Virus record (IMG/VR): IMGVR_UViG_3300042888_000268
Strand: one strand, 5' to 3'
From: an uncultured virus (IMG/VR IMGVR_UViG_3300042888_000268)
Lineage: Duplodnaviria; Heunggongvirae; Uroviricota; Caudoviricetes
DNA: 64,000 nt
The first letter of the stretch is position 1. Each line of letters opens with the position of its first letter. The notes under the pieces are model-generated. The model was given only the letters and a program-made list of their open reading frames with translations. It searched no databases and was not told the DNA's origin. This document shows, piece by piece, positions 32,011-53,685 of this stretch. The position numbers and the translations under genes were made by a program.

Positions 32011-32267
32011 AAAAAGTTTAAACTACACAAATTTAATATTATCTTATACATAATGTGCTGATAAGATATCCACCTAGTTTCCCCCTATGTGAATATCCCC
32101 TCTATGGGTGGACATAAATTTTTTTACCCCCTAAAAAATACTCCGTGTTATGCGGTGGTGGTACCTCACCATCAGCACTCCCCCATCGGTCACACGAGCG
32201 GGTGGTACCCCTAGCTTCCTGTGGAAGAGCAGGGGAAAACCCCTGACGTACATTAAAAATAATAGTT

Positions 32268-32465
32268 ATGGAAAAGATTAATGAATGTACGTGTACATCA
32301 CCCTATTGGTGTCATGACGAGAATCAGATGGAACCTGGATATACATGTGACTACTGTGAACAACAACAGTCTAGTCAGAGTGTGGTATCATTTGTTGCTA
32401 GTGTTAATAACCCTAGTATAGTGAGTGATGAGGATAATGAAGCTTATGATGATCTCCCTTTCTAG
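32268..32465 (+). CDS. Small Cys-containing acidic protein with SSB-like DDLPF tail
   Basis: 65 aa. CTC..CH..CDYC and C-terminal EDNEAYDDLPF. Confidence 0.75.
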   Translation: MEKINECTCTSPYWCHDENQMEPGYTCDYCEQQQSSQSVVSFVASVNNPSIVSDEDNEAYDDLPF

Positions 32466-32516
32466 GGGGATTATCATGTAGTATTCTACCCCTGATGCTG
32501 GTAAAAATAATATAAT

Positions 32517-32669
32517 ATGAAAGACCCAAATGTAGTTACACCAGCATTAAGTGATGAAGAAGTAATGGAAATGTTTCAGAAGGAGTATGAGAATCCAGGA
32601 TATGTAGATGATGATGAAGAACTAACTGAAGCAGACTATTGGGATGGTGATGCATCCTATTGTGAGTAA
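32517..32669 (+). CDS. Very acidic 50-aa protein
   Basis: Read manually: MKDPNVVTPALSDEEVMEMFQKEYENPGYVDDDEELTEADYWDGDASYCE. ATG 21 nt after ACCCCTGA; hairpin after the stop. Confidence 0.75.
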   Translation: MKDPNVVTPALSDEEVMEMFQKEYENPGYVDDDEELTEADYWDGDASYCE

Positions 32670-32740
32670 GTAAAGACACCCTTAATTGGGTGTTTTTTAT
32701 GTAGAATATAAACCCCTGATTGTATTAAAAATAATATATT

Positions 32741-32950
32741 ATGAAAAAGATTAGAATTAAAGTGTTTGTGTTAACTATGTTAGCACCGTTCCTAGCTGTA
32801 TGGATTGCTTGGATTATGACAGCCTTCAGCTTTGAAGTACGTGATGTATTTCAAGAAGGAGCCTTTTGGGGTATTAGTATGATCTACTACTTCATATGGT
32901 TGTGTCTTATTGGAATGGTTATAGATGAATTAAAGGAGCCTGCTAAATAG
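32741..32950 (+). CDS. Small two-TM membrane protein
   Basis: 69 aa with two hydrophobic segments; cassette context. Confidence 0.75.
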   Translation: MKKIRIKVFVLTMLAPFLAVWIAWIMTAFSFEVRDVFQEGAFWGISMIYYFIWLCLIGMVIDELKEPAK

Positions 32951-33003
32951 CAGGTTCTTTTTACAAAGAGACCAACCCCTGATTGTATTTAAAATTAAAT
33001 AAT

Positions 33004-33243
33004 ATGATAAATCTAAACTTGAACAAGAAACCATTTGGTATCAGATTTGAAGGTAATACAGTATGTATTAAGCTACGCTTTACAAAGGAAAGATTCCTTA
33101 AAGCAGAGATAGCAGAGTACGGCTCACACTTTACTACCAAGTCTGGCCATATCATCTTTGAAGCAGAGTATGTAGCACCAAGTAGAAACTTGGCTGAACT
33201 ACAGAACAAGCTTGATGTATTACGTAATCAGCCTACTAAATAG
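33004..33243 (+). CDS. Hypothetical early protein
   Basis: Likely start MINLNLNKK at 33004, 21 nt after ACCCCTGA. Confidence 0.7.
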   Translation: MINLNLNKKPFGIRFEGNTVCIKLRFTKERFLKAEIAEYGSHFTTKSGHIIFEAEYVAPSRNLAELQNKLDVLRNQPTK

Positions 33244-33303
33244 TAGGTTGGTTATTTTTTTCTGGTGTATTAAACCCCTGATTACATAATAAAATAATTC
33301 ATT

Positions 33304-33612
33304 ATGAGTAACATTACACAGCCTTATGGCTACAAAGTATTTAGTATTGGTAACATTACCGTTTACAGTGCTAAAATCCGAGTTAAAGCACACTACACTG
33401 ACTTTGACTTTATGTTTGTTAGTATGGCTAACAACCACCCTGTAATTATTAGCAACCATAAGAACAACTGCGTTGCTATTAGTTGGGCCACTACTGATTA
33501 CATAGTACATAATATGTACAGAGAGCTACTTAACAACAAGTTAGCCTCTATTATGCACGCACGCATAGATGCCAAGTATAGTAACCACCACGAGGTGACT
33601 ATGTGTATCTAA
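33304..33612 (+). CDS. Hypothetical early protein
   Basis: 102 aa, cassette context. Confidence 0.7.
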   Translation: MSNITQPYGYKVFSIGNITVYSAKIRVKAHYTDFDFMFVSMANNHPVIISNHKNNCVAISWATTDYIVHNMYRELLNNKLASIMHARIDAKYSNHHEVTMCI

Positions 33613-33695
33613 CCTATTATAGCAGATTGCCTAACAAGCAGTCTGCTATTATTATGTAGAATTTTACCCCTGATGGGTATATAAAAATATATAAT

Positions 33696-33941
33696 ATGAG
33701 TAAATTAAAATGGGTATTAAAATTAAAAAGGACCGAGACATTAACCAACGGTACTAAATTAGAAACATTAGAGTCCTATGACTTTGACACTTTAGAAGAT
33801 GCAAGTGATGCAGAGTTTAGAATAGATAAAGTAGGTATTTGGGATGTAGAAAGTGCAGTTGGTGTTAATGCAATAGGTTATAGTAGTTTAGGATTACAAT
33901 GTATTGAACTATTTAATTTAGGAGAAGAAGAGAAGGGTTAA
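33696..33941 (+). CDS. Hypothetical early protein
   Basis: 81 aa, cassette context. Confidence 0.7.
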   Translation: MSKLKWVLKLKRTETLTNGTKLETLESYDFDTLEDASDAEFRIDKVGIWDVESAVGVNAIGYSSLGLQCIELFNLGEEEKG

Positions 33942-33979
33942 CACCCTTCTTCTTCATTTAGAATATAACCCCTGATTCT

Positions 33980-34217
33980 ATATTAGATGTAATCTTCCTA
34001 GGTAGCTACGGGTTTAAGGTAACAGAAAAAAATCAACCTACTGAACCCTCATTATTAAAAACTGCAGAGTTGTGGGTACTGTAACAGTGATAGATTTTTA
34101 GATTGCATCTTTTATACAAACCAAATGGTTGGTTCCTTATAGCTTTGGACCGTAATACCACAACAGTCGTAGCTGACACACAGAAACAGGAGTTTATTAT
34201 TTCTCCTGTTTCTTTTT
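33980..34217 (+). ncRNA. Candidate structured ncRNA in a cassette slot
   Basis: No plus-strand ORF. Several long-range pairings; bounded by ACCCCTGA and an 11-bp terminator stem. Confidence 0.6.
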
Positions 34218-34260
34218 ATATTTAAACAACCCCTGATTATATATTAAAACAAATAAAACC

Positions 34261-34761
34261 ATGGAAAAGATCATCCTAAAAGCCCTCTCTTTGGCCGGCT
34301 TTAAAAATGCCGAAGAAATCACACGTGTTATTAGCTCAACTCCTAATCCAAGGATTGCAGCTGAAATGATACTAGGTGTGTTTGAACCCACTGTACTTGA
34401 CCCTGAAACAAGGTATAGAAAGCACAAGTATGATAGCCACAAAGAGTTTGTGGAAATACTTGAGATTGACGACCTAGCTAACACAGTAAAGTATAATGTG
34501 TTTAACCAAAACAGCAAGTGGGTGTACTATCTTACCCAAGAAGACAAAGAAGCAGGTATATATCATGATACCAAGAAGTCTAGTCTAAATTACTATGACT
34601 CTGGTAGTGTATCTACCGCTGGGTATACAGTAAATGAAAGGACTGATACCGTTGAATCCTTCTATCAAAGCTACACTAATGATATTTGTGTAGATAAGAT
34701 ACTAGAGATCACCGCTGCATGGGATGTACATAGTATACCTAAAGAGGCAGTTGCACTGTAA
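34261..34761 (+). CDS. Hypothetical early protein
   Basis: 166 aa, cassette context, hairpin plus T-run after the stop. Confidence 0.8.
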   Translation: MEKIILKALSLAGFKNAEEITRVISSTPNPRIAAEMILGVFEPTVLDPETRYRKHKYDSHKEFVEILEIDDLANTVKYNVFNQNSKWVYYLTQEDKEAGIYHDTKKSSLNYYDSGSVSTAGYTVNERTDTVESFYQSYTNDICVDKILEITAAWDVHSIPKEAVAL

Positions 34762-34829
34762 ATGTAAAGAGCTATCCTAGATTTGTCTAGGGTAGTTTTT
34801 CTATTTACACCCTCTATTGTAACCCCTGA

Positions 34830-35010
34830 TTTAACGATGCTAAATTTATATTAACATTGTTTGTTTAGTAGGCTCAACAATGGGGAAGAAAAACATAACC
34901 GTTTATGTAGTTTAACGACTCCATTTTCAGTGATGTTCCCCATTGTTTTACAGCTTAATAGATTAATGTATAGAAAGTTAAATCATTTCTGGCAGCCTTC
35001 GGCTGTCCCA
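34830..35010 (+). ncRNA. Candidate ncRNA in a cassette slot
   Basis: No ORF. Perfect 12-bp stem AACAATGGGGAA/TTCCCCATTGTT; ends in a cUUCGg hairpin. Confidence 0.5.
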
Positions 35011-35090
35011 CATTATCTATTTTTTCCACCCTCTATTTAACCCCTGATACAATATAGTAATAATTATTCACAAATTAAACAATTTAAAAA

Positions 35091-35420
35091 ATGTTACAAG
35101 CTAAATTAGACGGTTCTTACCGTAAAGCAACTACCGGTGTAAAAGTATTCAGATTTACCGTTAGCGGTACTGAACAAGACCTTAAAGCGTATGAAGACGC
35201 CCAAGGGGACAGTTATCGTTTAGATGAAAAGACCGGTAAGCCTTTGTGGTTCACCACTCGTTATATCGGTGATAGCGTAAAGCTTATTATCACTGATAAC
35301 AACAATGTTGTTGCTGATGATACTGAATTGGCTAAACTACAAAGTTTAGTAGACCAATTTGGTCCTGATGTTGCAAAGCTCGTTCTTATGCAGAAATCTG
35401 CACCAACAAGTGCTGAATAA
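35091..35420 (+). CDS. Hypothetical early protein (probably highly expressed)
   Basis: 109 aa, biased codons, terminator at about 35430-35469. Confidence 0.8.
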   Translation: MLQAKLDGSYRKATTGVKVFRFTVSGTEQDLKAYEDAQGDSYRLDEKTGKPLWFTTRYIGDSVKLIITDNNNVVADDTELAKLQSLVDQFGPDVAKLVLMQKSAPTSAE

Positions 35421-36130
35421 GCCTTGTTATATATCCTACACTCTTAACCGGTGTAGGATATATTTTTTTAAGTTAGTTTGTCCCCCAGTCCGTCATCTAA
35501 TTAACGACTCTTATTATTTTCTTACGGCTCTGCACGCCTTCAGCGTGTCTCATCCACACTTAACTCCCTGATTTTCATAGAGTTATGTGTGTAAATCAGT
35601 GAGATAGGAACACAGGTGGGATATCTATCATATCCACAAGTCTCTCTAAATCAGCCACTTTGAAGCGGATAATATGGCTATAACTATCAGATATATGACA
35701 CTAAAGTAAAAACACTACACATCTACAGGGACTATCCTTGATTACCCCCTGGTGTAGACCTTTAAGCAGTAAATCAAGCTATGTTGCTTATTGGACTTTT
35801 AGTTATTAAAGATACGATCTGTCTAATCCACAGATAGTATGCCCAATACGATGAGAAATGGTTTGATAACCATATGGGTAAGTGTTGTTACTTAGTAACA
35901 GCAGGTTGATCACCTGATGATGAACTTCTGAACAATCTATTTCTAACCTAGCAATAGGGACAGCCACGACACCTGTAAGTTGGATAAATTAGGGTGTTAC
36001 ATTTTTCAGACAGCTCACCAGTGAGCTACAATCATAGTATAGTTAATTATTAGTACTATGACTAGGGGTCATACATGAGCTCCCCCTTTTTCCACCAAGT
36101 TTATTTATTCATCACATACAATTCATTAAC

Positions 36131-36616: not shown

Positions 36617-37138
36617 ATGAAAACTTTCTCAATCAGTGCCCCATGGGACGAAAAATCAACTGTCGTTAGAGTGGAACTAGGTAAATACGCTAACGGTAGA
36701 ACTAGAATCAATCTTATAGATGATTCTGATAATGAGCCATATTGTACGGCTACAACTGATTTACCTGATGTCTTATTACTAGACAACGAAGTCTTTGTTA
36801 AAGACTATTCAGAGAACGAAGGCGTATTAGACTTCCTCACTACGAACAACATCGTAATTGCTACAGACAAATGGGCAACCAGTGGTTTTGTAGATGTACA
36901 GGTGTGTACACTTAATCCTGAATCAGAATGGGGACTAGTTCCTAATCTTTATTCAGATGAAGGACCAGAATATGACGGTGCAGGGTTTACAAAAAAAGAT
37001 AATAACAAAATGGACCCAGCTCCTGATAAAACAGATCCTGTTACAGGTAAGTCAATGTGGCTTATCAAAGGTTATAAAATATGGGCTAATACATATGAAG
37101 AAGCTGTAAAGCATCTTGATGTGATTGAATCATTTTAA
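36617..37138 (+). CDS. Hypothetical protein (DUF4313-like)
   Basis: Likely start MKTFSISAPW. GKYANG..EPYCTATTDLP..VFVKDYSENEG..SGFV pattern. Confidence 0.6.
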   Translation: MKTFSISAPWDEKSTVVRVELGKYANGRTRINLIDDSDNEPYCTATTDLPDVLLLDNEVFVKDYSENEGVLDFLTTNNIVIATDKWATSGFVDVQVCTLNPESEWGLVPNLYSDEGPEYDGAGFTKKDNNKMDPAPDKTDPVTGKSMWLIKGYKIWANTYEEAVKHLDVIESF

Positions 37139-37147
37139 ATTATTAAC

Positions 37148-37375
37148 ATGAAAAAAGCATTAGAAGTATTATTTGGTATAAAAGAGCCTAAAAAGCTCTC
37201 TAAACCAATTGAACTATCATTTTCTACATTAACACCTATTAGTAGGCCAGGTATGGGAGAATGGTTCAAAAGATATAACGTGGGCATATTGTCTGATAGA
37301 CAATCAACTAATGTCCAAATTAGAATGGGTAACATCATTAAGTATGTTGATCTACATTCTATAAGAAGTTTTTAA
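37148..37375 (+). CDS. Hypothetical protein
   Basis: 75 aa in operon; terminator TTGCAGGTT..AACCTGCAA at about 37414-37445. Confidence 0.6.
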   Translation: MKKALEVLFGIKEPKKLSKPIELSFSTLTPISRPGMGEWFKRYNVGILSDRQSTNVQIRMGNIIKYVDLHSIRSF

Positions 37376-37487
37376 TAGGACTTGGACCGGTTCTACTTCA
37401 CTGAACTAGCAGTTTGCAGGTTAAGCTTTAAAACCTGCAATTTTTATTTTAGGTAACAATAATTAATTAATTCATAATCAATCATTT

Positions 37488-38252
37488 ATGAAAAAGCAAT
37501 CAGATGCTTCAATTTTAAAGACAATAATGCCTTTAGAAATCTTACGTAAAGACTCCAACAAGAGTCTTGGTATTTTAAACATGGTCAATAGACCAATTGT
37601 ACCCTCACATGTCACCTCTGTAGCTACATCAATTGAGAAAATAGGTCTTATACGACCTGTTGTTGTAGCTAATCTAGACTTAAAAGAGTTTAAAGGAGAA
37701 TATATTATAGACGGACAGCATTTGTTTAATGCTTGTATGAGACTAAACAAACACGTTCCTTATGTAAAAATAGACATAAACTCGGAAGAAGAACTAATAG
37801 ACATATTAGCTAGTCTTAACAATTCATCTAAAGCATGGACATTAAAAGACTATGTACAATCATGGGCATACATACGCTCAGATTTTAGAAAATTAGCTAA
37901 ATATCGTCAAACATATGATTTAGAATTAGTAGCAATTGCAGGTATTTTGCATAAGTCTCCTAATATATTTCATTGTATGAACTTAATTAAGAAGGGTGAA
38001 CTGGTAATTAAAAACGAAGCGGTAGCTGTCAAGGTGATGGAATACACTAATGATCTATTAGGTGTATTCAATAAGTTTGATAGAAAGAACGCTAGAAAGT
38101 TAGTTAATGCATATGTACAATATGTAACAAACACTCATGATTCTTATAATCATAAAAAATTCTTAAATAACATTAACAAGCAGAAAAGTAAATTAGAACT
38201 GTTATTGGCTAATCCTGATGACGTCACTGATTTCTTTAATAAAATGTCTTAA
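37488..38252 (+). CDS. ParB/Srx-like domain protein
   Basis: NRPI..GLIRPVVV..YIIDGQH..LNNSSKAW. Confidence 0.7.
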   Translation: MKKQSDASILKTIMPLEILRKDSNKSLGILNMVNRPIVPSHVTSVATSIEKIGLIRPVVVANLDLKEFKGEYIIDGQHLFNACMRLNKHVPYVKIDINSEEELIDILASLNNSSKAWTLKDYVQSWAYIRSDFRKLAKYRQTYDLELVAIAGILHKSPNIFHCMNLIKKGELVIKNEAVAVKVMEYTNDLLGVFNKFDRKNARKLVNAYVQYVTNTHDSYNHKKFLNNINKQKSKLELLLANPDDVTDFFNKMS

Positions 38253-38259
38253 TGTTATT

Positions 38260-38540
38260 AAACTCGGTGAGGCTAGCAAGTGCTAGTATGGGTACTCTCT
38301 TACCCGAACCATAGATGCAAGACTGATCAACTATGAGATGCTGCAGATGAAAACTGAACGTTCTTAATAAGACTAGTAAGATGGCTGCCGTGATGGGGGC
38401 ATACCAAAGAGACTACTGCATTAGCTAACGCTTCATAAGCCAGCACCGTCTTAAGTAGTATTGACTGAACCTGACAGCACAGCTGTTCAGATGTAGGGAA
38501 CTTCAACACAATCAGTACGTTAAGCTGATTATTTTTATTA
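38260..38540 (+). ncRNA. Candidate structured ncRNA
   Basis: GC-elevated intergenic tract with several stems, ending in AATCAG..CTGATT hairpin plus T-run. Confidence 0.45.
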
Positions 38541-38563
38541 ATCATTCATTAAATATAAAAACT

Positions 38564-38959
38564 ATGTCAAAAAAACTGACACCAACTATTGCCAAAGCAT
38601 TGGCAGAGAAAGTACGAGCTGAATTAGTAGTTCGTCACAAAGGAAGCACTGAAACCATTACCAAAAAGGTTGAGTCTTCTAAACTCTATAAAGAGTTATT
38701 ATTAACCATCAAGAAAATTGATGAGCTTGACGAGAAAAAACTAGTTCTTAGAAAAGAAATAGAGGAGAATTTATCTACAAAAATGTATGATGTAGGTGTA
38801 TCTTCTTATCATTCTACACCTCATATATCTGTTAACTATCGTTCTGCATTTTCAGTGGATAGCATTAAAGATATGATCTTGATAGAAGACTACATGTCTG
38901 AAAACGCAAAAACTCCAGAAGAGTTTGTAAAATTCATAGCTGACAAATTATCTAAATAG
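38564..38959 (+). CDS. Hypothetical protein
   Basis: 131-aa ORF with A-rich leader. Confidence 0.75.
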   Translation: MSKKLTPTIAKALAEKVRAELVVRHKGSTETITKKVESSKLYKELLLTIKKIDELDEKKLVLRKEIEENLSTKMYDVGVSSYHSTPHISVNYRSAFSVDSIKDMILIEDYMSENAKTPEEFVKFIADKLSK

Positions 38960-38966
38960 CAATTGT

Positions 38967-39143
38967 ATGACAATTGAACAACTGAATAGGCTGCTAAATA
39001 CAGCTTGTGAAATCATTACAGCATTAGAAGAGCATGCTGATGAATCATTAAAAAAAGATATAGATGCTTTCTTTAATGAAATTAAATATTCTGATGATAT
39101 AAAAGAAGAAATTGATCATTATGAATTGGGTGGTGAAGCATAA
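38967..39143 (+). CDS. Small acidic protein (58 aa)
   Basis: Read manually: MTIEQLNRLLNTACE...YELGGEA; fills the operon gap. Confidence 0.65.
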   Translation: MTIEQLNRLLNTACEIITALEEHADESLKKDIDAFFNEIKYSDDIKEEIDHYELGGEA

Positions 39144-39174
39144 GTAATTAATAACAATTTAAAAACAATTTACC

Positions 39175-39522
39175 GTGAGTAAAAAATTAATCAAAGGTGT
39201 ACAAACAGCATTTGTTGCTGACATCAAAGCAGGAGTAAAAACAGAAGTATTAGTAAGTAAATATGGCTTTCCTAATAGAGGCAAGTTATATCAAACTATG
39301 TACTATTTAAGAAAAACAGGTGTATTACCTAAAAGAAAGCATAAAACAGCTAAAAAAGTTGTTAAGCCTGTAATGACACAATCTAAAACTGTAGACAATA
39401 CAGCGTCTATAAACAATTTTAGAACTGTGTTTTTCCAAGACTTTTCTGTTCAGATTCATAAGAAAGCTAATTCAAGAGTGGTATTGGATGAGAACAACAA
39501 CGTCCATATTTTAAACAACTAA
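39175..39522 (+). CDS. Basic hypothetical protein, possible HTH
   Basis: 115 aa, GTG start, Lys-rich. Confidence 0.65.
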   Translation: MSKKLIKGVQTAFVADIKAGVKTEVLVSKYGFPNRGKLYQTMYYLRKTGVLPKRKHKTAKKVVKPVMTQSKTVDNTASINNFRTVFFQDFSVQIHKKANSRVVLDENNNVHILNN

Positions 39523-39533
39523 AAGTTAACCGT

Positions 39534-40136
39534 ATGTTATTTAAACAACGAGGATTTAACCACGAAGAAGAGATCTTTCATAGAGCTCTTAGCGTAAGTG
39601 ATGATGTTAAAAATATAGTAAGAGAGAAAATATTCTTCTCTTCATTTAGCAATGCATTACAAGCAATGGATTTGTTTGAAGACATAAATGACGCTCCAAG
39701 AGCATTGTCTACAGTGACAGGTGATCTAGAAAAGTGTCTACAAATGACTGATGGTCATGAAGAATATGAATATGCTTTATTGTGTTTCACTATGTATCAG
39801 AGACTTACTAAACCTACTTTAGCAGAGTATAGAATGAAAAATAGTACAGATCCTGAAGATAGAGAAGCTATGTTAAAGCATAGAATTATAGAAGCTATTA
39901 TGGAATTAAAACGTGAATCAGATAAATCTGAGTCTGAAGAAGATAATGAGTATCCTGATGAAGAAAAGGGTCCTTTTGCTGTTAATCAGACAAGAATGAT
40001 GACACGTTTAAAATATGTAAAGAAGTCTAATTATAACTTCAATACATATATGAATTTGATGAAAGGTGTTAAAACCACTAAATCAGATTTTGATATAGAA
40101 GGATTATTAGGAAACATATTAGAAGGTGATGATTAG
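39534..40136 (+). CDS. Hypothetical protein
   Basis: 200 aa, followed by the terminator GAGGGGGGCA-GCAA-TGCCTCCTTTT. Confidence 0.75.
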   Translation: MLFKQRGFNHEEEIFHRALSVSDDVKNIVREKIFFSSFSNALQAMDLFEDINDAPRALSTVTGDLEKCLQMTDGHEEYEYALLCFTMYQRLTKPTLAEYRMKNSTDPEDREAMLKHRIIEAIMELKRESDKSESEEDNEYPDEEKGPFAVNQTRMMTRLKYVKKSNYNFNTYMNLMKGVKTTKSDFDIEGLLGNILEGDD

Positions 40137-40179
40137 TAAATAAGTAAAAGAGGGGGGCAGCAATGCCTCCTTTTTTTAT

Positions 40180-40187
40180 TACATTTG
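40180..40187 (+). promoter_or_regulatory. Bacteroidota-type -7 element TACATTTG
   Basis: TAnnTTTG consensus upstream of the HTH gene; identical copy at 62066-62073. Confidence 0.55.
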
Positions 40188-40213
40188 CTCCTTTTCATTT
40201 ACAAAACACACAC

Positions 40214-40504
40214 ATGTCACAACTTATCAACTATAGATTAAAAAATGGCTTTGGACAAGTTAGTAACAATGTTATGAGAAATCCTGAAGTTTCTTTACAA
40301 GAGAAAGCAGTTTATTCTTATCTTTGTACTTATTCAGATGCCATTACTAATCAGACATATGTTGGTATAGCTAAAATGGCAGATGAATGTGGAGTGTCTC
40401 AATCAACTATTAAAAGAATATTAAATAGTCTTGAGAGTAAAAGAATAATAGTAAGAGTAACTCGTGGTAATGGATTAACATCGTTTACAAACATATTAAA
40501 ATAA
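40214..40504 (+). CDS. Winged helix-turn-helix protein (replication-initiator-like N-terminal HTH)
   Basis: Likely start MSQLINY. FGQVSNNVMRNPEVSLQEKAVYSYL..IAKMADECGVSQSTIKRILNSL. Confidence 0.8.
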   Translation: MSQLINYRLKNGFGQVSNNVMRNPEVSLQEKAVYSYLCTYSDAITNQTYVGIAKMADECGVSQSTIKRILNSLESKRIIVRVTRGNGLTSFTNILK

Positions 40505-40509
40505 AAGCT

Positions 40510-41160
40510 TTAATAGCAGTGGGCCAGGCTCAGATAAGCAGGTATTAGTACGCTATTTATATGTATAACTCCTGAGCCCCAGCTAACTTATTAATTGTAA
40601 TCACACTGAGCGTCTCCTCATTATAGCTGTGATGTATGTTGTTATTGAGTAATGACCAACAACAATTAAACTTATTAACTGATTATAGAAGACTCGTAAG
40701 ACCCTGCGGGCTAGGTCAGCTATAATGGTTAAAAATAAAGATCTGATCCTAAGTGCCTATCATTAGTTCTTGTCTCGTTCGTCAAACAGTTCCGTCATTT
40801 AGTAGTACGACATGTGTATTGAGCTCCGTCAAACGAAAAATGGTCATACCTAGTAGCATTACGTAATAGTACAAAAGTAGTCCTTGAGATAGATCTTTTT
40901 TAAAATATTACCAAGTTAAAGTCAGTGGCAATAAAACCGGCCACGTGAACTGTCCTCTTAGTATTGCACTGTAGAGAGCCACAAAAAACCGGATACTTGG
41001 GAGCAGTTGGTGAAATTCTACGTCTGGAAGCTACTTATATATATCCGAGTAGTGAAGCAGAATAAACAGTCAGGTAAAACATTCCAGGTCTGAACCGTAA
41101 AAGTAATCAACGACTGAGAAGTGGTGGAGTTTTTAATAGATCTCCACTGCTTCTTTTTTA
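40510..41160 (+). ncRNA. Cluster of candidate structured ncRNAs upstream of tmRNA
   Basis: About 650 nt without an ORF; successive closed stem domains and a final terminator. Confidence 0.5.
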
Positions 41161-41164
41161 TAAT

Positions 41165-41578
41165 GGGGCCGTATTGGTTTTGACAGATATGAGGAAGGTA
41201 GTATCACATGTAAGCCTTGGAACAGGTAAACAAGTTCTAAACAATAACCGTAAAGAGTCAATCTGAGCGTGTTGCAGAAGGTGAAGCTATCTTAGCTTCT
41301 ATCTTTGCTTCTGAGTATGCATTAGCAGCTTAGGCAACTGGGTGGTAACAACCTGGAAACAGAAAGTTACAAGCGTTTTCTCTGTTATGTCAAAACAGAG
41401 TGGTGGATGGTAAGCAGGACCTGCGTACCCCAATCTACTGATCAGGAGTGTCCAGGACTCTGTAGAAATACAATGTAATTGCTCTGGAAAAATGTACATG
41501 AACAGCTCTAGATCTAAGCATGTAAGAATGGTATTATTGTCACGTATTTGGACAGGGGTTCAACTCCCCTCGGCTCCA
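41165..41578 (+). ncRNA. ssrA: tmRNA
   Basis: 5' GGGGCCG..TTTGACAG; 3' T arm AGGGGTTCAACTCCCCT plus CGGCTCC-A with G3-U70. Tag frame 41250-41333 ends YALAA-stop. Confidence 0.93.
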
Positions 41579-41596
41579 CACATTAAAAACAACATT

Positions 41597-41818
41597 ATGA
41601 TAGGAAGTAAATATCCTTATTTTAAACAAAAAAACAGCCATATGCAAGATGTAGTATTCAAAGTGTATCAAGTATTTTATACTAAACCTGCTAAGAAAAG
41701 AAGAAAAGCATTAAGTATTATGCTTAAATGGTGCTTTAAAGAATACATTAAGACTTTTAAAAAGGAAGAAATTCCATTAAATGTAATGACAAATGAGATC
41801 GTTAAGCTTGATGATTAA
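41597..41818 (+). CDS. Hypothetical basic protein
   Basis: Start MIGSKYPY after the tmRNA 3' end. Confidence 0.6.
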   Translation: MIGSKYPYFKQKNSHMQDVVFKVYQVFYTKPAKKRRKALSIMLKWCFKEYIKTFKKEEIPLNVMTNEIVKLDD

Positions 41819-41923
41819 ATACTTTATGCTATTTACTATAGCATATATAGCCTTGTGGATACTGGCCATATTACAATTAATAAATGAAGCTTTTGTTTCT
41901 TTAATAAATAAATTAAAAAATCT

Positions 41924-42142
41924 ATGGACCAAGAACTAGACCCAATTAATCATGGGCACTATATAGAGTTGATAGACAGAGTACATGTAATGGCTTCTAA
42001 CATAGAAGATCATTTAATTAATCACCGCTTAACAGCTGATGTAGCAGAATTAAAAGATCATTTTGAGAAAGCTCAAGAGTCTCTTATGAATGCATACCAA
42101 CTAATAGGTAATATAATGCCAGATAATGACAGAGTATACTAA
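41924..42142 (+). CDS. Hypothetical protein
   Basis: 72-aa helical ORF in operon. Confidence 0.7.
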   Translation: MDQELDPINHGHYIELIDRVHVMASNIEDHLINHRLTADVAELKDHFEKAQESLMNAYQLIGNIMPDNDRVY

Positions 42143-42689
42143 ACTACCCATACCTAAAGATACGGCATGGGATACAGCAAGATTTAAATGGGGTAGATAT
42201 ATCCATTGGAGTATTAGATACTTCTTTCAAGGAGTATGGAATATAATACGATGGATGCCAACTATCTATCATGATAGAGATTGGGATGACTATTACATTA
42301 CTAAGATGCTACAAAAGAAGCTTGAGTTTCATAGAGCTCACTTAGTATCAGAGAATAGACATGTGAATATAGATAGAGATAACTACTGGATGACAGTGGT
42401 ACTTAATCTTTTAGAACGTAAACATATGGAATACTATCAAATGGAACGCTATGACTATATGGTACATGGCCCAGAACTATTTGATGATTTAATATCAGAC
42501 ACTCTTGATGAGTATATAGCTAAATATGGTAGTGCTAAACGTGCAGCTATTAAAAAGTATGCTAAAAATAATCCACGTCTTAATGATAAGGAATCTATAT
42601 CATTTTATATGTGTACTATACGTCAACAGAAAGCTGATGATCTAATATTTGAGATTCTTAAAAGACATTCTGCCGAATGGTGGGATTAA
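42126..42689 (+). CDS. Hypothetical phage protein
   Basis: 187 aa. NIIRWMPTIYHDRDWD...WWD. Confidence 0.75.
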   Translation: MTEYTKLPIPKDTAWDTARFKWGRYIHWSIRYFFQGVWNIIRWMPTIYHDRDWDDYYITKMLQKKLEFHRAHLVSENRHVNIDRDNYWMTVVLNLLERKHMEYYQMERYDYMVHGPELFDDLISDTLDEYIAKYGSAKRAAIKKYAKNNPRLNDKESISFYMCTIRQQKADDLIFEILKRHSAEWWD

Positions 42690-42700
42690 ATTTATAAATT

Positions 42701-43252
42701 ATGACAGAAGAACAATATATAGAGCTAAAAGATAAATACCTTACAAATATTAAAAGGTATATGATACAAGAAGGAGGACTATTCTCTCACATCAGCGTAT
42801 TTGCTGAAAAGTTAGGATATGATGAAGATGATGATCAAGAAACTAAAAATGCTATCATTCATATTCCTCTACCTACAAAAATTGCTAACTCAGATGAAGG
42901 TAAAGAGTACTTTGTTACTAAAATGATACCTGATATAGCTAGTTCATTAAAAGAAGGTTTTACAACAACAGGTGTAGCCTGGGCTTCCGAAGCTTGGTTA
43001 AGATCTTCTCATATAGATGATAAACAACCAGAGAACTGGAAAGATATGCCTATAAAAAAAGAGGTGTTAATGGTATCTATGGAGTCTGCATTTGGTAATG
43101 AAACCAGTGTCTACGAGATAGTTCGTAATGGAATGAAGGTTACCGAGGAAGGGTTATCTGACACAATTGAATTAATTAAAGATGAAGAGCTTAGTGGTGA
43201 AAACCTGAATTTTGAGGGTAGATTCACTGGGCTTTATAAAAAATTTATATAA
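42701..43252 (+). CDS. Hypothetical protein
   Basis: 183 aa with SEAW motif. Confidence 0.75.
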   Translation: MTEEQYIELKDKYLTNIKRYMIQEGGLFSHISVFAEKLGYDEDDDQETKNAIIHIPLPTKIANSDEGKEYFVTKMIPDIASSLKEGFTTTGVAWASEAWLRSSHIDDKQPENWKDMPIKKEVLMVSMESAFGNETSVYEIVRNGMKVTEEGLSDTIELIKDEELSGENLNFEGRFTGLYKKFI

Positions 43253-43416
43253 TGATTAAATGGATCAAAGACTTATTTAAATCAACAAGAGTTAAAGAAC
43301 TTGAACAACATATCGTTGTTTTAGAAAGAGAACTCTTAAAAAGGCAGGAAGATATTAATAAAACCAATGCTTATTGGAAAAGAAAGATGCATAACCTAAA
43401 AAAGAGAGAGGATTAA
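43252..43416 (+). CDS. Small coiled-coil protein (54 aa)
   Basis: Read manually; TAATG-coupled; MIKWIKDLFKSTRVKELEQ... Confidence 0.6.
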   Translation: MIKWIKDLFKSTRVKELEQHIVVLERELLKRQEDINKTNAYWKRKMHNLKKRED

Positions 43417-43508
43417 TAGATTATAGCTCTATTATCCAACCTATTAGTAATCAAGTGATTGTAAATTGAGCTTTAGTAAGTAGTTTTATAGCAAATAATA
43501 CTATAACT

Positions 43509-43766
43509 ATGATTTATCAATTACCAAACGGAAAGGTAATAGAGATAAGTACAGAACAATATTTTGAGATGTCCGATGAAGAGTTTGAATATTTAGTAGC
43601 TTATAACTATGGTGAGATTGTTGAAAATCCATGGTTTGGCTCAGTGATAAGTAAAGCAGATAATTCTAAAGAAGATGTTACAGAGACTGTTCCTGACTTA
43701 ACAGATATCCCCTTATCAGAAAAACTTGTTAATCCTGATCTTGATATGCAAAGAGAAGAAGAATAG
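43509..43766 (+). CDS. Acidic hypothetical protein
   Basis: 85 aa, followed by the terminator TCCCCTAG..CTAGGGGA plus T-run. Confidence 0.75.
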   Translation: MIYQLPNGKVIEISTEQYFEMSDEEFEYLVAYNYGEIVENPWFGSVISKADNSKEDVTETVPDLTDIPLSEKLVNPDLDMQREEE

Positions 43767-43843
43767 AACAATTTTAATTATTACACACGTCCCCTAGGTT
43801 TATAATCTAGGGGATTTTTTTTATTTTAAAAACAATACACAAA

Positions 43844-44305
43844 ATGGACAAAGTTAAAGTGACAGCAGACAAAAACGGTAACATCGTAACAGTATCAGAA
43901 TCTAATCCAGAATACGGATATATCCGTGTTGAGCAAAACGCTATGGAAGTAAGTACTAATAACTGGTTAAGAGTTGTAAGACGTTCCACCTTAGTTAAAG
44001 GAAAAGTATCAGACTTGTTAGAAGCAGGTTTTAAAAGCAATCAAGAATTGCCTGGTAAGATAATTATAATGGAATCTTTAGAACCATTTAATCCTGAGAA
44101 TCCAGACCGTGATTTAAAAATTGCTGGTAAGACAGGTGTTATATGTAGAATAGATGATCAGCCTATTTATAGACAATCTATTTATACAACAAATTTAGAC
44201 GCTAATGATCAATTAGTTGCTCATACAAATGCTATTGAAATCAGAGAAGTTCAAGCAGCTCAAAATGCTGCTGAACTATTAAATACAGCTGATGCAAAGT
44301 TATAA
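43844..44305 (+). CDS. Conserved hypothetical protein, possible ssDNA-binding protein
   Basis: 153 aa, beta-rich, flanked by terminators. The function is a guess. Confidence 0.5.
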   Translation: MDKVKVTADKNGNIVTVSESNPEYGYIRVEQNAMEVSTNNWLRVVRRSTLVKGKVSDLLEAGFKSNQELPGKIIIMESLEPFNPENPDRDLKIAGKTGVICRIDDQPIYRQSIYTTNLDANDQLVAHTNAIEIREVQAAQNAAELLNTADAKL

Positions 44306-44387
44306 ATAACTTAATTATACATAGATAAAGGCTCAGGTAATCTGGGCCTTTTTTCTTATATTTACTAATCACATAATACATCATAAC

Positions 44388-44906
44388 ATGTACAATCCTC
44401 ACAAAACCGTATCTGCTAACTCTAGAGGAATTATTGTTTCTTTCAGAGATATCAACAAACATAAGTTTATGGCTTATGACAACCAGTACGTAAATGACCT
44501 TCAACTAAAAGGTAGATCAAGATACCAGCAAATTGAACCACCAGTGTTCAACTTTAAGCAACAACAGATTTATTCTGAAGTTGTGTATGGTCTTAACATA
44601 TTTACTAAAGAAGATTTACAAAAAATGCCGGCTACTAAAAAGTCAGCAATCCTTAATCATTTTAATAAGGTGCAAAGGTTTTTAAATGCATGGAAACAAG
44701 AGATAGTTAGTATCAAAGTTGATTCTTTTCTATTAAAACTATTTCCACGATCATCTGTTATAAAGCATATGGTTGAAATTAAAGGGTCAGACGACACTTT
44801 AAAAGATAAACATTCATTTAAAGAACTTGGCATTAGTAAAAAGATGATAGCTAACAAGCTAATAGAAGCTAAATTATTACCAAAAGAATTTTTTAAACTC
44901 ACGTAA
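44388..44906 (+). CDS. Hypothetical protein
   Basis: 172-aa ORF. Confidence 0.75.
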   Translation: MYNPHKTVSANSRGIIVSFRDINKHKFMAYDNQYVNDLQLKGRSRYQQIEPPVFNFKQQQIYSEVVYGLNIFTKEDLQKMPATKKSAILNHFNKVQRFLNAWKQEIVSIKVDSFLLKLFPRSSVIKHMVEIKGSDDTLKDKHSFKELGISKKMIANKLIEAKLLPKEFFKLT

Positions 44907-44910
44907 ACTT

Positions 44911-45120
44911 ATGCAAAATATATTTGTAACAGAAAATGATGTCCAACTTGTATTAGTGCCTGAAAATGAATTAGATAGACTATTAATTAATAAACTATTA
45001 GACAATGGTCCAGTAGAAATTATTAGAGTTAGTCAACCTATAGGCGTTATGGGGCAATCTATACAAGATGGTGTTATTATTAAAAGAAAAGTAATGTTAG
45101 ATGATTCAAGCAAAGCTTAA
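44911..45120 (+). CDS. Hypothetical protein
   Basis: 69-aa ORF in operon. Confidence 0.7.
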   Translation: MQNIFVTENDVQLVLVPENELDRLLINKLLDNGPVEIIRVSQPIGVMGQSIQDGVIIKRKVMLDDSSKA

Positions 45121-45508
45121 AACATGTGCAGGTTGTAATGAGCCTAAACACATTTGGAAATCAGATGGCAAAGATAAATACTGTAAGGAGTGCTGGTATA
45201 AAGTCCAGCCTCCAAAAGGTATGCCTAAACAAACCAAAAAACCTAATCCCATTAGTGTAAAGATGAAACAAACAGTAGATGAGTATTCTAAACTTAGAAA
45301 CTTATTTATGATAGCTAATCCCAGTTGTAAAGCTGGATTAGTAGGCTGTACAATAATTGCTACAGATGTTCATCATAAAGCAGGACGTGGAGAAAATCAT
45401 TTAAAAGTCAGCACTTGGCTTCCAGTGTGCAGATCATGCCACCGTTGGATTGAGGAAAATCCAAATGAAGCTAAAGAACTTGGCTATTCAGAAAATCGTT
45501 TAAATTAA
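45101..45508 (+). CDS. HNH-like nuclease with Zn ribbon (NinG-like)
   Basis: CAGC..CKEC, then C..C..DVHHKAGR..VCRSCH. Confidence 0.75.
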   Translation: MIQAKLKTCAGCNEPKHIWKSDGKDKYCKECWYKVQPPKGMPKQTKKPNPISVKMKQTVDEYSKLRNLFMIANPSCKAGLVGCTIIATDVHHKAGRGENHLKVSTWLPVCRSCHRWIEENPNEAKELGYSENRLN

Positions 45509-45513
45509 ATTTT

Positions 45514-45732
45514 ATGCAAAATTGCCCAAAATGTTCACAAGAAGGTAAATATCTAACAAGCCCTTTTCAAGTAGTTGGTAAAACTTATTACAAAATTGAC
45601 AAAGATACTTTTTTGTGTTATAGACACTGGTATCAATCAAAAAAACGTAAATATCAGATTTCAGGAGACTATTATTCTATTATAAGAGAAATAAACAAAC
45701 CTGAATATTTACAAGAGAACTATCTAAAATAA
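45514..45732 (+). CDS. Small Zn-finger-like protein
   Basis: CPKC..CYRH. Confidence 0.6.
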   Translation: MQNCPKCSQEGKYLTSPFQVVGKTYYKIDKDTFLCYRHWYQSKKRKYQISGDYYSIIREINKPEYLQENYLK

Positions 45733-45789
45733 AACTAGTTTATGGAAAAAACATGGGATGAAATTGAAGAATTAAAAAACAAATAACTT

Positions 45790-46134
45790 ATGGACTCAAA
45801 AGAATATCTTATTAATGAGTTTTCAGATAAAATTAGTATGAGACTTTTTAATCAATTACATGCTTTAATGAAAGAGTATCCTACTAAAGAAGATATTCAT
45901 AAAATAACTGCAGAAGTATTATTAAAACATAAAGGTATTGGTAAAGTGGCAGTTAATGAGTTTTATAAGGTAGTTTTAAATAAAAAACCACCTTTTAACT
46001 TAACACCAAATAAGATACTAGATGAGAATAAAGTATATTCTGCAATAAAAGCTGCTATTATTCGTTGGGTAGTTGATCATAATAAAACAGCAGGTTGTTT
46101 AACAAGAGAAATTATGTTAATAATCAAACAATAA
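45790..46134 (+). CDS. Hypothetical protein (RNAP alpha-CTD/HhH-like motif)
   Basis: ISMRLFNQL..LLKHKGIGKVAVNE resembles the alpha-CTD pattern LSxRxxNxL..LLKxxNxGxKSxxE. Confidence 0.5.
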   Translation: MDSKEYLINEFSDKISMRLFNQLHALMKEYPTKEDIHKITAEVLLKHKGIGKVAVNEFYKVVLNKKPPFNLTPNKILDENKVYSAIKAAIIRWVVDHNKTAGCLTREIMLIIKQ

Positions 46135-46137
46135 AAC

Positions 46138-46419
46138 ATGGAAAAGACATGGGATGAAATTAGAGACTCTTACAGAATGGCAGCAGTTCATTTTGCTAAC
46201 AGATACAACGAGCAAGTATCTGAACACATCATTGATGTTATGATATCAGCAATGATGACTAAAGACAGCGTTTTACATGGCGGAAGCTTTGTACAAGCAG
46301 TAATTAACAACGATCTAAAGGATGCAATCAGTAGAGCTGATACAGAATGCCTTAAGCATTTAAGAATCATCACACTATGTGCAAACTTTTGTAACGTACA
46401 ATATGAAATGAACCACTAA
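46138..46419 (+). CDS. Hypothetical protein
   Basis: 93 aa, GGSFVQAVINNDL..AISRAD. Confidence 0.7.
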   Translation: MEKTWDEIRDSYRMAAVHFANRYNEQVSEHIIDVMISAMMTKDSVLHGGSFVQAVINNDLKDAISRADTECLKHLRIITLCANFCNVQYEMNH

Positions 46420-47522
46420 TGAGTAAAAGAGAAATTATTCAACAGGAAGCCTTAGATATGGCTATTAAACACAAACGTTGTGGTCTTGGTATATCTATGG
46501 GTGTTGGTAAAACTCTTATAGGATTAAAATACATAGATCATTTCAGAAAAGATAATAAGCTTAGGGTGCTAGTAGTAGCCCCTAAACTTTCTATATTTGA
46601 ATCATGGAAAGATGATGGAACTAAATTTGATATAAATGTAGATGATTTAGAATTTACTACATACTTATCACTTAATAAGTTTAACCCTAACAACTATGAT
46701 TTAGTAGTGCTAGATGAGTGTCATAGTTTACTAGACTCTCATGAAATTTTTCTAGCTAACTACACTGGTAAAATATTAGGCCTTACAGGCACGCCTCCTA
46801 GATATACAAAATCAGAGAAGGGTCAGATGGTCTTTAAATATTGCCCAATAAATTATAAATACATCACTGATGATGCTGTAGACGATGATATTCTTAATGA
46901 CTATAGAATTATAGTACATAAGATGCCAATTGATACAAAATTAAATATGTCTGTTAAAGCAAAAGTTGGTACTTTTTACACTTCTGAAAAGAAGAGTTAT
47001 GAGTACTGGACCAAAAGAATACTAGATTCTCAATCTAAAAAGCAGGAGCAAATAGCTTCTGTAATGAGAATGAGGGCTCTAATGGATTTTCGTACTAAAG
47101 AAAAATACAGTAAAAACTTATTGGATAGTATGGAAGATAAGTGTTTAGTATTTTGTAACACACAAGAACAAGCAGATAGAATCTGTACTTACTCTTATCA
47201 TTCTAATAACCCCGACTCTGAAGATAACCTACAAGAATTTAAAGATGGTAACATCTCTGAATTGTCATGTGTAATGCAGCTTAATGAAGGTGTAAATATA
47301 CCTAATCTTAGAGCTGGAATAATTATGCATGCTTACGGTAATGAGCGTAAAGCTAATCAGCGTATTGGTAGACTCTTAAGACTTAACCCTGATGATACAG
47401 CGTATATACATATACTATGTTATTCAGGTACAGTGGACGAGCGTTGGGTGGCAGAAGCACTTAGAGATTTAGATCCTAGAAAAATTAAATACTTTGACGT
47501 AAACCTAGAAGATTATGAGTAA
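46419..47522 (+). CDS. Superfamily 2 helicase
   Basis: MGVGKT, VLDECH, GLTGTP, EGVNIP, QRIGR motifs. Confidence 0.9.
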   Translation: MSKREIIQQEALDMAIKHKRCGLGISMGVGKTLIGLKYIDHFRKDNKLRVLVVAPKLSIFESWKDDGTKFDINVDDLEFTTYLSLNKFNPNNYDLVVLDECHSLLDSHEIFLANYTGKILGLTGTPPRYTKSEKGQMVFKYCPINYKYITDDAVDDDILNDYRIIVHKMPIDTKLNMSVKAKVGTFYTSEKKSYEYWTKRILDSQSKKQEQIASVMRMRALMDFRTKEKYSKNLLDSMEDKCLVFCNTQEQADRICTYSYHSNNPDSEDNLQEFKDGNISELSCVMQLNEGVNIPNLRAGIIMHAYGNERKANQRIGRLLRLNPDDTAYIHILCYSGTVDERWVAEALRDLDPRKIKYFDVNLEDYE

Positions 47523-47910
47523 TCACTTAACAGGAAAATTTATAAAGAAAGGAGCAAGACTAGACTTTAGTAGTTTAGCGTCATCAAAACAGTTTGAATT
47601 ATTTGTATCAAGTGTACCTGAACATAGCATAGTGGAGTTTTTCTACGAAGTTACTCATGATGATGGTACGCTTCCTCAGCTAGCCAAGTTACATGTAATG
47701 CTAAAACAATTAGCAACACATATTGGTGAGACTGTAGAGAATATGAAACTATTAGTAAAAGATAGAGCGGGTCTATGCATAGCCAGAGAAGTTGCAGGTA
47801 AAGAATACTTCTTAGCAAAAAGCTTTGCAGAATGTTCTAAAGATGAACTATCCCTTGCTATACAAGCAGCAATAGAAATTAGCCACGAGGTAAACCATCC
47901 TCTAGTGTAG
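47515..47910 (+). CDS. NinB/Orf-like recombination protein
   Basis: TLPQLAKLHVMLKQLA..G..MK..KSFAECSKDELS pattern. Confidence 0.55.
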   Translation: MSNHLTGKFIKKGARLDFSSLASSKQFELFVSSVPEHSIVEFFYEVTHDDGTLPQLAKLHVMLKQLATHIGETVENMKLLVKDRAGLCIAREVAGKEYFLAKSFAECSKDELSLAIQAAIEISHEVNHPLV

Positions 47911-48178
47911 GAGCTTCTAGTTCTTCTTGAACAGTTAATCCTTTACTATGAGCTACCACTTCTAAGTGTCTTACAAAAAAAGATAAGAATGCAAAGTGTT
48001 CAATCCATTCTTCAGGATATTGATTCTTTAGAATAAGATCTTGAGCCTTAGTAATTTCTTCTTCAGTTTTACCTTCTATAACATATAGAAGTAGCTTTTG
48101 TAAGTTAATTAAAGTGTTACCTCCCACCTCAATAGGAAATGTAGTATCTCTTTTAATTGCTGTATAAGTATTAGCCAT
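47879..48178 (-). CDS. Hypothetical protein (counter-oriented)
   Basis: 99 aa filling the gap; TATTTTTG on the minus strand at 48196-48203 upstream. Confidence 0.7.
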   Translation of the reverse strand: MANTYTAIKRDTTFPIEVGGNTLINLQKLLLYVIEGKTEEEITKAQDLILKNQYPEEWIEHFAFLSFFVRHLEVVAHSKGLTVQEELEAPTLEDGLPRG

Positions 48179-48212
48179 AGGTATATTTATTTATACAAAA
48201 ATAATCAAATTT

Positions 48213-48929: not shown

Positions 48930-48947
48930 TCAACTAAAAACAATTTT

Positions 48948-49367: not shown

Positions 49368-49371
49368 TGCT

Positions 49372-50769: not shown

Positions 50770-50792
50770 TATAATCTTTTAAATAAAGTAAA

Positions 50793-53565: not shown

Positions 53566-53673
53566 TCACTTTAACTTGTTTAAGATGACTAGATTAGATT
53601 TGATTAAAGCTGCAGTTTTAACTCCAGACTTAACAGATCTCATAGCTCTTTTCTTTTTCTTAGCGTTTGCCAT
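53566..53673 (-). CDS. Small basic peptide (35 aa)
   Basis: Read manually: MANAKKKKRAMRSVKSGVKTAALIKSNLVILNKLK; fills the gap exactly. Confidence 0.55.
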   Translation of the reverse strand: MANAKKKKRAMRSVKSGVKTAALIKSNLVILNKLK

Positions 53674-53685
53674 TGTAATTAAAAT

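What the first reader, a model, noticed from the sequence alone, without database searches (positions are those of the whole stretch)
32200..35580. Array of self-contained expression cassettes: hairpin + ACCCCTGA + one small gene or ncRNA
Seen: ten exact ACCCCTGA octamers plus one degenerate copy lie in about 3.3 kb, all intergenic and on one strand; I noticed no exact copy elsewhere in the window. In seven coding cassettes the ATG follows at a nearly fixed distance (21, 21, 21, 21, 22, 22, 24 nt). Every copy is preceded by a hairpin of different sequence (e.g. GAGCCTGCT-AAAT-AGCAGGTTC, GAAGAAG..AAGGGT/ACCCTTCTTCTTC, AGAAACAGGAG/CTCCTGTTTCT). The cargoes are unrelated, and two or three slots hold no ORF. 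The motif is not the host TAnnTTTG promoter. Known: crAss-like phages deliver their own RNA polymerase; N4 vRNAP uses hairpin promoters; T4-type PeSL repeats mediate gene shuffling. Inference: a phage-RNAP early promoter/terminator cassette system that may also act as an exchangeable array of host-takeover or anti-defence cargo.
Basis: partly seen in the sequence, partly recalled or inferred. Interest (0 to 1): 0.88.

Follow-up and report, generated by a model that had tools for sequence, protein, structure and literature searches.

The report
Swappable phage-specific early promoter array
An uncultured crAss-like phage opens its early arm with ten tiny one-gene or one-RNA units, each behind the same phage-specific start signal; relatives shuffle these units, change the signal across the array at once, or replace the whole array with a single gene, which makes the signal a testable candidate for the unknown promoter of these phages' injected RNA polymerase or of a helper protein carried in the array.

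Summary
Confirmed. Ten exact ACCCCTGA (chance mean 1.16) head the rightward arm of a distant crAss-like phage. Each unit reads hairpin, motif, cargo. A purine 17 bases after the motif's first A is kept in 97-100% of 170 contexts whatever the ATG distance, and folded RNA cargo starts pairing there: a predicted start site (not measured). Relatives gain, lose and reorder cassettes, with breakpoints enriched at the motif, and each array mostly uses one variant of AC(C/T)C(C/T)(T/A)GA(T/C). A relative 95-96% identical over 27 kb encodes a DFDID virion-type RNA polymerase. Against the simple reading: that relative, and one 96.5-99.6% identical in six flanking proteins, have no array, only one unrelated gene. 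The array travels with its last gene (F1, 35091-35420, no known family or fold), a candidate specificity factor. It works like T4 PeSL cassettes but lacks their sigma-70 promoter; no N4-type hairpin; no evidence for anti-defence cargo. This scan has reported similar arrays in at least eight other crAss-like windows. New here: the +17 rule, the array-versus-single-gene swap, and the F1 link.

The parts
32143..32211 (+). Conserved head element ending in GTGGTACCCC; left boundary of the swappable module, kept in array and single-gene relatives
32239..32256 (+). Motif copy 1 with predicted start site at 32256
32268..32465 (+). Cargo c1, 65 aa, Cys-rich N-terminus, acidic; no family
32448..32475 (+). 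Hairpin over the c1 stop codon, no U-tract
32488..32505 (+). Motif copy 2, predicted start 32505
32517..32669 (+). Cargo c2, 50 aa acidic; present in L009, deleted in its close relative L010
32676..32693 (+). Terminator-like hairpin followed by T6
32712..32729 (+). Motif copy 3, predicted start 32729
32741..32950 (+). Cargo c3 (F3), 69 aa hydrophobic, probable membrane protein; in 20 related units
32936..32957 (+). Terminator-like hairpin followed by T5
32975..32992 (+). Motif copy 4, predicted start 32992
33004..33243 (+). Cargo c4 (F2), 79 aa; commonest variable cargo (29 units)
33224..33255 (+). Terminator-like hairpin followed by T7
33274..33291 (+). Motif copy 5, predicted start 33291
33304..33612 (+). 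Cargo c5 (F5), 102 aa; precisely deleted in L029 and L052
33619..33649 (+). Hairpin after c5
33666..33683 (+). Motif copy 6, predicted start 33683
33696..33941 (+). Cargo c6 (F14), 81 aa
33930..33951 (+). Hairpin over the c6 stop codon
33968..33985 (+). Motif copy 7, predicted start 33985
33985..34216 (+). Non-coding cargo n1: 5' domain with no match in fetched loci, invariant core about 34126-34159 shared by 6 of 6 aligned loci, terminal hairpin 34182-34213 with two compensatory pairs; no Rfam family
34229..34246 (+). Motif copy 8, predicted start 34246
34261..34761 (+). Cargo c8 (F6), 166 aa
34769..34797 (+). Terminator-like hairpin followed by T5
34822..34839 (+). Motif copy 9, predicted start 34839
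34839..35010 (+). Non-coding cargo n3: long stem and a CUUCGG hairpin (34991-35007); conserved but no two-sided covariation; no Rfam family
35040..35057 (+). Motif copy 10, predicted start 35057
35091..35420 (+). F1, 109 aa, constant last cassette; 517 relatives at 50% clustering; confident beta+helix model, no family or fold match; candidate specificity factor
35429..35463 (+). Terminator-like hairpin with T tail after F1
35564..35581 (+). Degenerate copy CTCCCTGA, purine at +17, kept in 9 related loci
35665..35682 (+). Single-copy GCGGAT-N6-GCTATA element; right boundary of the module, kept in array and single-gene relatives; candidate promoter of the rest of the early arm

Best explanation
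The array is a swappable pre-early module. Each unit ends in a hairpin that stops or weakens upstream transcription, then a one-block promoter (WACCCCTGAY at about -17 to -9, an A/T-rich spacer, purine +1) starts a short transcript carrying one small protein with a 12-15 nt A-rich leader, or one folded RNA. The repeated 25-45 bp promoter-leader gives short homology for ordinary recombination that deletes, adds and reorders units. The whole module, F1 included, is exchanged between the head element and the GCGGAT-N6-GCTATA element for a single-gene alternative. Shown from sequence: anatomy, +17 purine, shuffling, array-wide motif switches, whole-module swap.
For: Motif confined to one strand at the arm switch. 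Purine at index +17 in 40/40, 41/41, 97% of 32, 98% of 41 and 16/16 contexts across ATG distances and ORF-less units. Mean pairing probability of 20 non-coding units rises 0.25, 0.44, 0.74 at +15, +16, +17. 85 of 124 ATG distances are 20-22 nt, too short for a -35 role; no conserved upstream block apart from T-richness. 31 distinct cargo strings in 37 array rows, 22 family pairs in both orders, 28 of 37 rows with one octamer throughout. 12 of 21 alignment ends within -30..+37 of a motif against 23% expected; a contig joins 33272 to 34228 over 12 shared letters. L044 and L055 share three cassettes in order and 92% late-arm DNA, yet each promoter differs. G001, 95-96% identical over 27 kb, encodes DFDID polymerase (tblastn to phi14:2 gp66, E 1e-23). 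Complete genome G011 has polymerase, two F1 homologues, and all 7 YAACCCCYT sites in 2.8 kb on one strand, A at +17 in 6 of 7. Cargo homologues in array-less genomes sit without the motif, 5 of 5.
Against: No start site was measured; contigs from RNA libraries also cover late genes and the divergent gap, so they do not show expression. The polymerase is not in the window, and no ACCCCTGA-type array was found on a contig that carries it. G001, L005, L008 and other relatives have no array; their single head has only a related C-run, with purine at +17 in 5 of 8 heads. In phi14:2 early transcripts had no detectable common motif and I found no array in its first 12 kb. No F1 column separates motif position 4 variants and only one separates position 8 variants. 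Only about half of the hairpins have a U-tract. The breakpoint and pairing statistics use related, non-independent sequences; the pairing profile had no shuffle control.
Confidence: 0.68

Rival explanations
1. The motif acts on RNA: one long transcript from the head is cut or processed 17 nt after each motif, and the hairpins protect 3' ends. F1 could be the RNA-binding or processing factor.
For: It predicts the same fixed +17 ends and F1 linkage. Half of the hairpins lack a U-tract. It would explain why strains with the same polymerase need no array.
Against: Five hairpins look like full intrinsic terminators directly before a motif, which would cut read-through. The A/T-rich spacer and purine +1 fit initiation (inference).
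Confidence: 0.1
2. Host RNA polymerase with an alternative sigma factor reads the motif as a -10-only or extended -10 promoter, with no phage protein needed.
For: The module is dispensable and portable between genomes. The -36 to -30 zone is T-rich. [quoted passage not shown]
Against: No TAnnTTTG and no sigma-70 excess (16 sites against 17.5 expected). No conserved -35 block. Array-wide switches between close relatives would each need a host or sigma change.
Confidence: 0.1
3. The octamer is only a site-specific recombination site (integron-like), and expression comes from the head.
For: Breakpoints cluster at the motif; cargo order changes.
Against: Crossovers fall before, in and after the octamer (L010 before; L029 between +15 and +42), not at one bond. 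The fixed +17 purine and fixed ATG distance have no role in this model. No recombinase among 59 scanned window proteins, though the genome is incomplete.
Confidence: 0.07
4. The motif is kept only by gene conversion among copies and has no reader of its own.
For: Neighbouring promoters share extra letters such as ATGTAGAAT.
Against: Positions +9 to +14 vary freely between invariant positions, and the ACCCC core with the +17 rule persists in phages whose F1 is under 50% identical.
Confidence: 0.05

Closest known systems
PeSL (promoter-early stem-loop) cassettes of T4-type phages (Arbiol et al. 2010, PMC2839356, passages read; Comeau et al. 2014, PMC4122927, first third read)
   Same: Terminator plus promoter between small unknown genes; indels and replacements by recombination between the repeats, with crossovers in the promoter-leader.
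   Different: PeSLs carry the host sigma-70 consensus and lie in several regions; here a one-block phage-specific motif that switches array-wide, one array at the arm head, RNA cargo, a constant last gene, and swap of the whole array for one gene.
Pre-early promoters of Thermus phage P23-45, assigned to its virion two-barrel RNA polymerase gp96 (PMC10770324, passages read)
   Same: A phage-specific motif repeated before many start sites near the first-entering end; related class of polymerase.
   Different: AT-rich motif, mapped by cappable sequencing; different phage; no cassette shuffling in the passages seen.
Early genes of crAss-like phage phi14:2 transcribed by virion polymerase gp66 (bioRxiv 10.1101/2020.03.07.982082, passages read)
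   Same: Homologous polymerase in a near-identical relative; early arm with highly transcribed non-coding regions.
   Different: No common motif was detected upstream of phi14:2 early transcripts; no array found in its first 12 kb.
Coliphage N4 early promoters and cofactors (review PMC4496689, passages read)
   Same: Injected polymerase; small first-made proteins and SSBs act as transcription cofactors, a model for F1.
   Different: N4 needs a template hairpin centred at -11; none forms consistently at these copies; T7-type enzyme.

Membership tests
PeSL cassettes | Stem-loop terminator joined to a promoter, between small ORFans | tested here: met
   (promoter function inferred)
PeSL cassettes | Host sigma-70 consensus promoter | tested here: not met
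PeSL cassettes | Gene gain and loss with breakpoints in the element | tested here: met
PeSL cassettes | Mini-circle intermediates | not testable with these tools
   needs inverse PCR or raw reads; only contigs were laid
PeSL cassettes | T4-type phage | tested here: not met
   crAss-type capsid, portal, terminase
N4-type hairpin promoter | Template-strand hairpin centred at -11 | tested here: not met
   5 of 10 copies give no fold, 3 under 1 kcal/mol, 2 unrelated hairpins
crAss-like phage | crAss-type major capsid protein, portal and terminase | tested here: met
   PF23898 E 7.7e-31; phrog_6547; phrog_6681; terminase about 25% to crAss phages
crAss-like phage | Virion RNA polymerase with DFDxD | tested here: inconclusive
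   not inside the window; present in G001, 95-96% identical over 27 kb, about 20 kb past the window's end
Promoter of the crAss virion RNA polymerase | Rifampicin-resistant initiation by the virion enzyme | not testable with these tools
   no start-site data
Promoter of the crAss virion RNA polymerase | Present in every genome with that polymerase | tested here: not met
   G001 and G004 have the polymerase and a single-gene head; only a related C-run is present
Integron cassette array | Promoterless cassettes with attC hairpins | tested here: not met
   hairpins unrelated in sequence; motif outside the hairpins with promoter geometry
Integron cassette array | Adjacent tyrosine integrase | tested here: inconclusive
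   none among 59 window proteins scanned; genome incomplete

The most novel reading that the evidence does not exclude
The head of the early arm is a plug-in regulon: the array carries its own promoter-specificity factor F1 (a widespread 109-aa protein of no known family), which lets the injected or host polymerase read the array's private promoter; F1 and promoter type change together, and near-identical phages swap the entire regulon for a single gene.
Probability: 0.28. Interest if true: 0.85.

Novelty: new variant of a known kind. Interest (0 to 1): 0.62.

Why it matters
The promoter of the crAss virion RNA polymerase was not found in the one phage where it was sought. This array gives a precise, base-level prediction (motif at -17 to -9, purine +1) with five natural variants. 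The array-less sister strains are a built-in control and raise a second question: whether specificity lies in the giant polymerase or in a small swappable gene. The array is also a concentrated pool of first-expressed small proteins and RNAs under rapid turnover.

Tried and rejected
No whole genome is held for the window, so a genome-wide count was limited to the 64 kb and to relatives. Rfam: no family in the array at gathering score; five sub-threshold hits treated as chance. Cargo and F1: nothing above cut-off in Pfam, PHROGs or PADLOC; NCBIfam was not run. F1: shallow model pLDDT 50 was uninformative; deep model pLDDT 90.6 gave no Foldseek match at E<=0.001 and best Z 3.9; no PDB sequence match below E 0.88, no Atlas hit, no match in cultured phages; one 16-residue match in genome contigs treated as chance, so no host was found. 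F1 versus the single-gene protein of G001: no similarity (probability 0.1); Atlas neighbours with ssDNA-binding families scored 0.80-0.83, a lead only. Polymerase-versus-motif co-variation could not be tested: 4 of 21 records had the polymerase, none with an ACYCYWGAY array. A -35 role for CCCTTGACA variants was rejected because the ATG lies 20-22 nt on. My hand-written structure was out of register and is discarded; one search replaces it and shows 0 of 49 pairs with two-sided change. RNA-library contigs left parts of the array uncovered and covered late genes too, so they say nothing on expression. One search gave 28 loci, of which 3 entered the array table (L075, L077, L093). Lbo-JY46 and phi14:2 first 12 kb showed no array.
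Full report
Observation. The ten octamers, their strand, their intergenic places and the ATG distances are as reported. Chance gives 1.16 on average. At one mismatch there is no excess (31 against 28.5), so the signal is strict. The array begins where GC skew and gene direction switch: structural genes run left, early genes right.

Context. The window encodes a crAss-type capsid protein (PF23898, E 7.7e-31), portal and terminase and a tmRNA. The closest cultured capsid is 29% identical. No whole genome is held. The nearest record, G001, matches 37029-45765 at 94.7% and 46138-64000 at 96.3%, and continues to an open frame with DFDID that aligns with phi14:2 gp66 (23%, E 1e-23). The window's phage therefore very probably encodes the virion polymerase; this is inference.

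Anatomy of the signal. In 199 non-redundant contexts the fixed part is WAC(C/T)C(C/T)(T/A)GA(T/C), then six or seven free A/T-rich letters, then T/A and A-rich letters (the core letters are fixed by the search pattern itself). Counting the first A as 0, position 17 is a purine in 40 of 40 units with ATG distance 17-20, 41 of 41 at 21, 97% of 32 at 22-25, 98% of 41 without an ORF call and 16 of 16 long-leader F1 units. It is thus tied to the motif, not to the ATG. In 20 non-coding units mean pairing probability is 0.07-0.25 up to position 15, 0.44 at 16 and 0.74 at 17 (related sequences, no shuffle control). Both fit a transcript starting at position 17, which puts the motif at -17 to -9 and leaves 12-15 nt leaders. 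The hairpins differ in sequence and distance and sit at or just after stop codons, so they are read as terminators; one shows two compensatory pairs.

Cargo. Eight proteins, none with a family, and two folded non-coding units without Rfam match. n1 has a 5' domain not seen in the fetched loci and a core invariant in 6 of 6 aligned loci. n3 is conserved but too uniform for covariation.

Relatives shuffle cassettes. Searches gave 37 array rows with at least three motifs, the window included and several being the same contig; 31 distinct cargo strings; 22 family pairs occur in both orders. Intragenic ACTCTTGA/ACTCTAGA hits were dropped before the counts. L010 lacks c2 of L009; L029 and L052 lack c5 with the junction between +15 and +42; a contig from an RNA library joins 33272 to 34228 across 12 shared letters. 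Of 21 distinct alignment ends at 85% identity or more, 12 lie within -30..+37 of a motif, which is 23% of the array (nominal p 7e-4; not independent). Five homologues of cargo in array-less genomes have no motif upstream, so genes move between the array and ordinary early operons.

The motif switches array-wide. Types are ACCCCTGAT, ACCCTTGAT, ACCCTTGAC, ACCCCTGAC and AC(T/C)CCAGAC; 28 of 37 rows use one octamer throughout. L044 and L055 are 92% identical in the late arm and share their first three cassettes in order, with shared cargo 79-84% identical, yet each promoter differs in type and F1 is only 45% identical. L044 and the window share the type and 71% of F1 while their F2 and F3 cargo is 44-45% identical. 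Against a simple F1 code: L043 differs from the window in type with F1 74% identical, and no F1 column tracks motif position 4. More distant phages keep an ACCCC core and the +17 purine; in complete genome G011, which has the polymerase and two F1 homologues, all seven YAACCCCYT sites lie in 2.8 kb on one strand.

The whole array is optional. L005 is 96.5-99.6% identical to the window in six neighbouring late-arm proteins and follows it into the head element, then carries one unrelated 103-aa gene and reaches the GCGGAT-N6-GCTATA element 550 bp later. L008 and G001 have the same head gene; G004, G005 and L011 have other single genes, and L017/L019 a distant form of the L005 gene by eye. Head type needs 4 and 5 changes on trees of two flanking proteins, 2 and 3 forced by well-supported branches. 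F1 was found in 3 of 3 array genomes and 0 of 4 single-gene genomes, which are fragments 41-77% complete. F1 ends 33 of 37 rows; two exceptions are one cut contig, and two were fetched through F1 but mis-called by my script. Most rows were fetched with F1, so this is biased, but both complete arrays found by motif alone (L075, L130) also end in F1. The G001-type single head reads ACCCCGTC with AAA at +17 and ATG at 23 nt, the array's geometry; over all single heads the purine rule holds in 5 of 8, a weak hint that one relaxed polymerase core is shared.

F1. 517 relatives at 50% clustering; confident model (pLDDT 90.6) of beta strands and three helices; function not identified.

Mechanism and odds. 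Phage-read promoter array 0.68 (polymerase alone 0.40; with F1 0.28); RNA processing signal 0.10; host alternative sigma 0.10; recombination site only 0.07; no reader 0.05. F1 as sole activator has a start-up problem, since it lies behind nine hairpins; it would need basal reading or delivery in the virion (inference).

Literature. Seen: passages of bioRxiv 2020.03.07.982082, PMC2839356, PMC4496689, PMC10770324; first third of PMC4122927. Searches, seen as listings only, showed no description of such arrays or of a crAss virion-polymerase promoter; the library lacks most subscription papers, and the phi14:2 supplement with mapped 5' ends was not seen and could bear on the +17 rule. Earlier notes of this scan describe similar arrays in eight other windows; two further word look-ups for the single-gene swap and the last-gene link, and one by F1 sequence, returned nothing.

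Verdict. Real, PeSL-like in action, not a PeSL by promoter type: a new variant of a known kind, already seen elsewhere by this scan, with added evidence that complicates the simple virion-polymerase reading. Interest 0.62.

Noticed in passing
window 41165-41581 (+): Phage-encoded tmRNA, tag peptide ending EYALAA.
   Followed up: no
window 32143-32211; L023-L028, L067 heads: Palindromic GGGGTACCCC-type head element conserved out to distant relatives at the late/early switch; could be a packaging or terminal site, an origin or a first promoter.
   Followed up: partly
window 35665-35682: Single-copy GCGGAT-N6-GCTATA element, often with TTTG upstream, kept in array and single-gene relatives; candidate host-polymerase or activator-dependent promoter.
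   Followed up: partly
window 35797-36000: Non-coding stretch 98% identical in L001, far above its flanks, and 84% over 128 nt in distant L024; candidate RNA without Rfam match.
   Followed up: partly
window 34991-35007 and the same place in many arrays: CAGCCTTCGGCTG hairpin recurs upstream of the F1 promoter across motif types; reads as a UUCG RNA hairpin or a GAA-loop DNA hairpin on the template strand.
   Followed up: partly
L033 7033-7097 (+): Pistol ribozyme (RF02679, 47 bits, above gathering score) downstream of the array.
   Followed up: no
L001 7577-7790 and L003 about 9110-9205: The same structured RNA-like sequence lies inside the array in L001 and outside it in L003.
   Followed up: no
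window 36617-46419 (+): Genes after the array lack the motif; 40180 has a terminator followed by TAnnTTTG, fitting host-polymerase promoters downstream.
   Followed up: partly
G001 76-390; G004 and G005 first early gene: The single head genes encode small proteins; weak Atlas leads to ssDNA-binding families for the G001 protein.
   Followed up: partly
L001 7280-7528: Cargo F8 is a small protein with a hydrophobic N-terminus and repeated Cys/His motifs; sub-threshold zf-primase hit.
   Followed up: no
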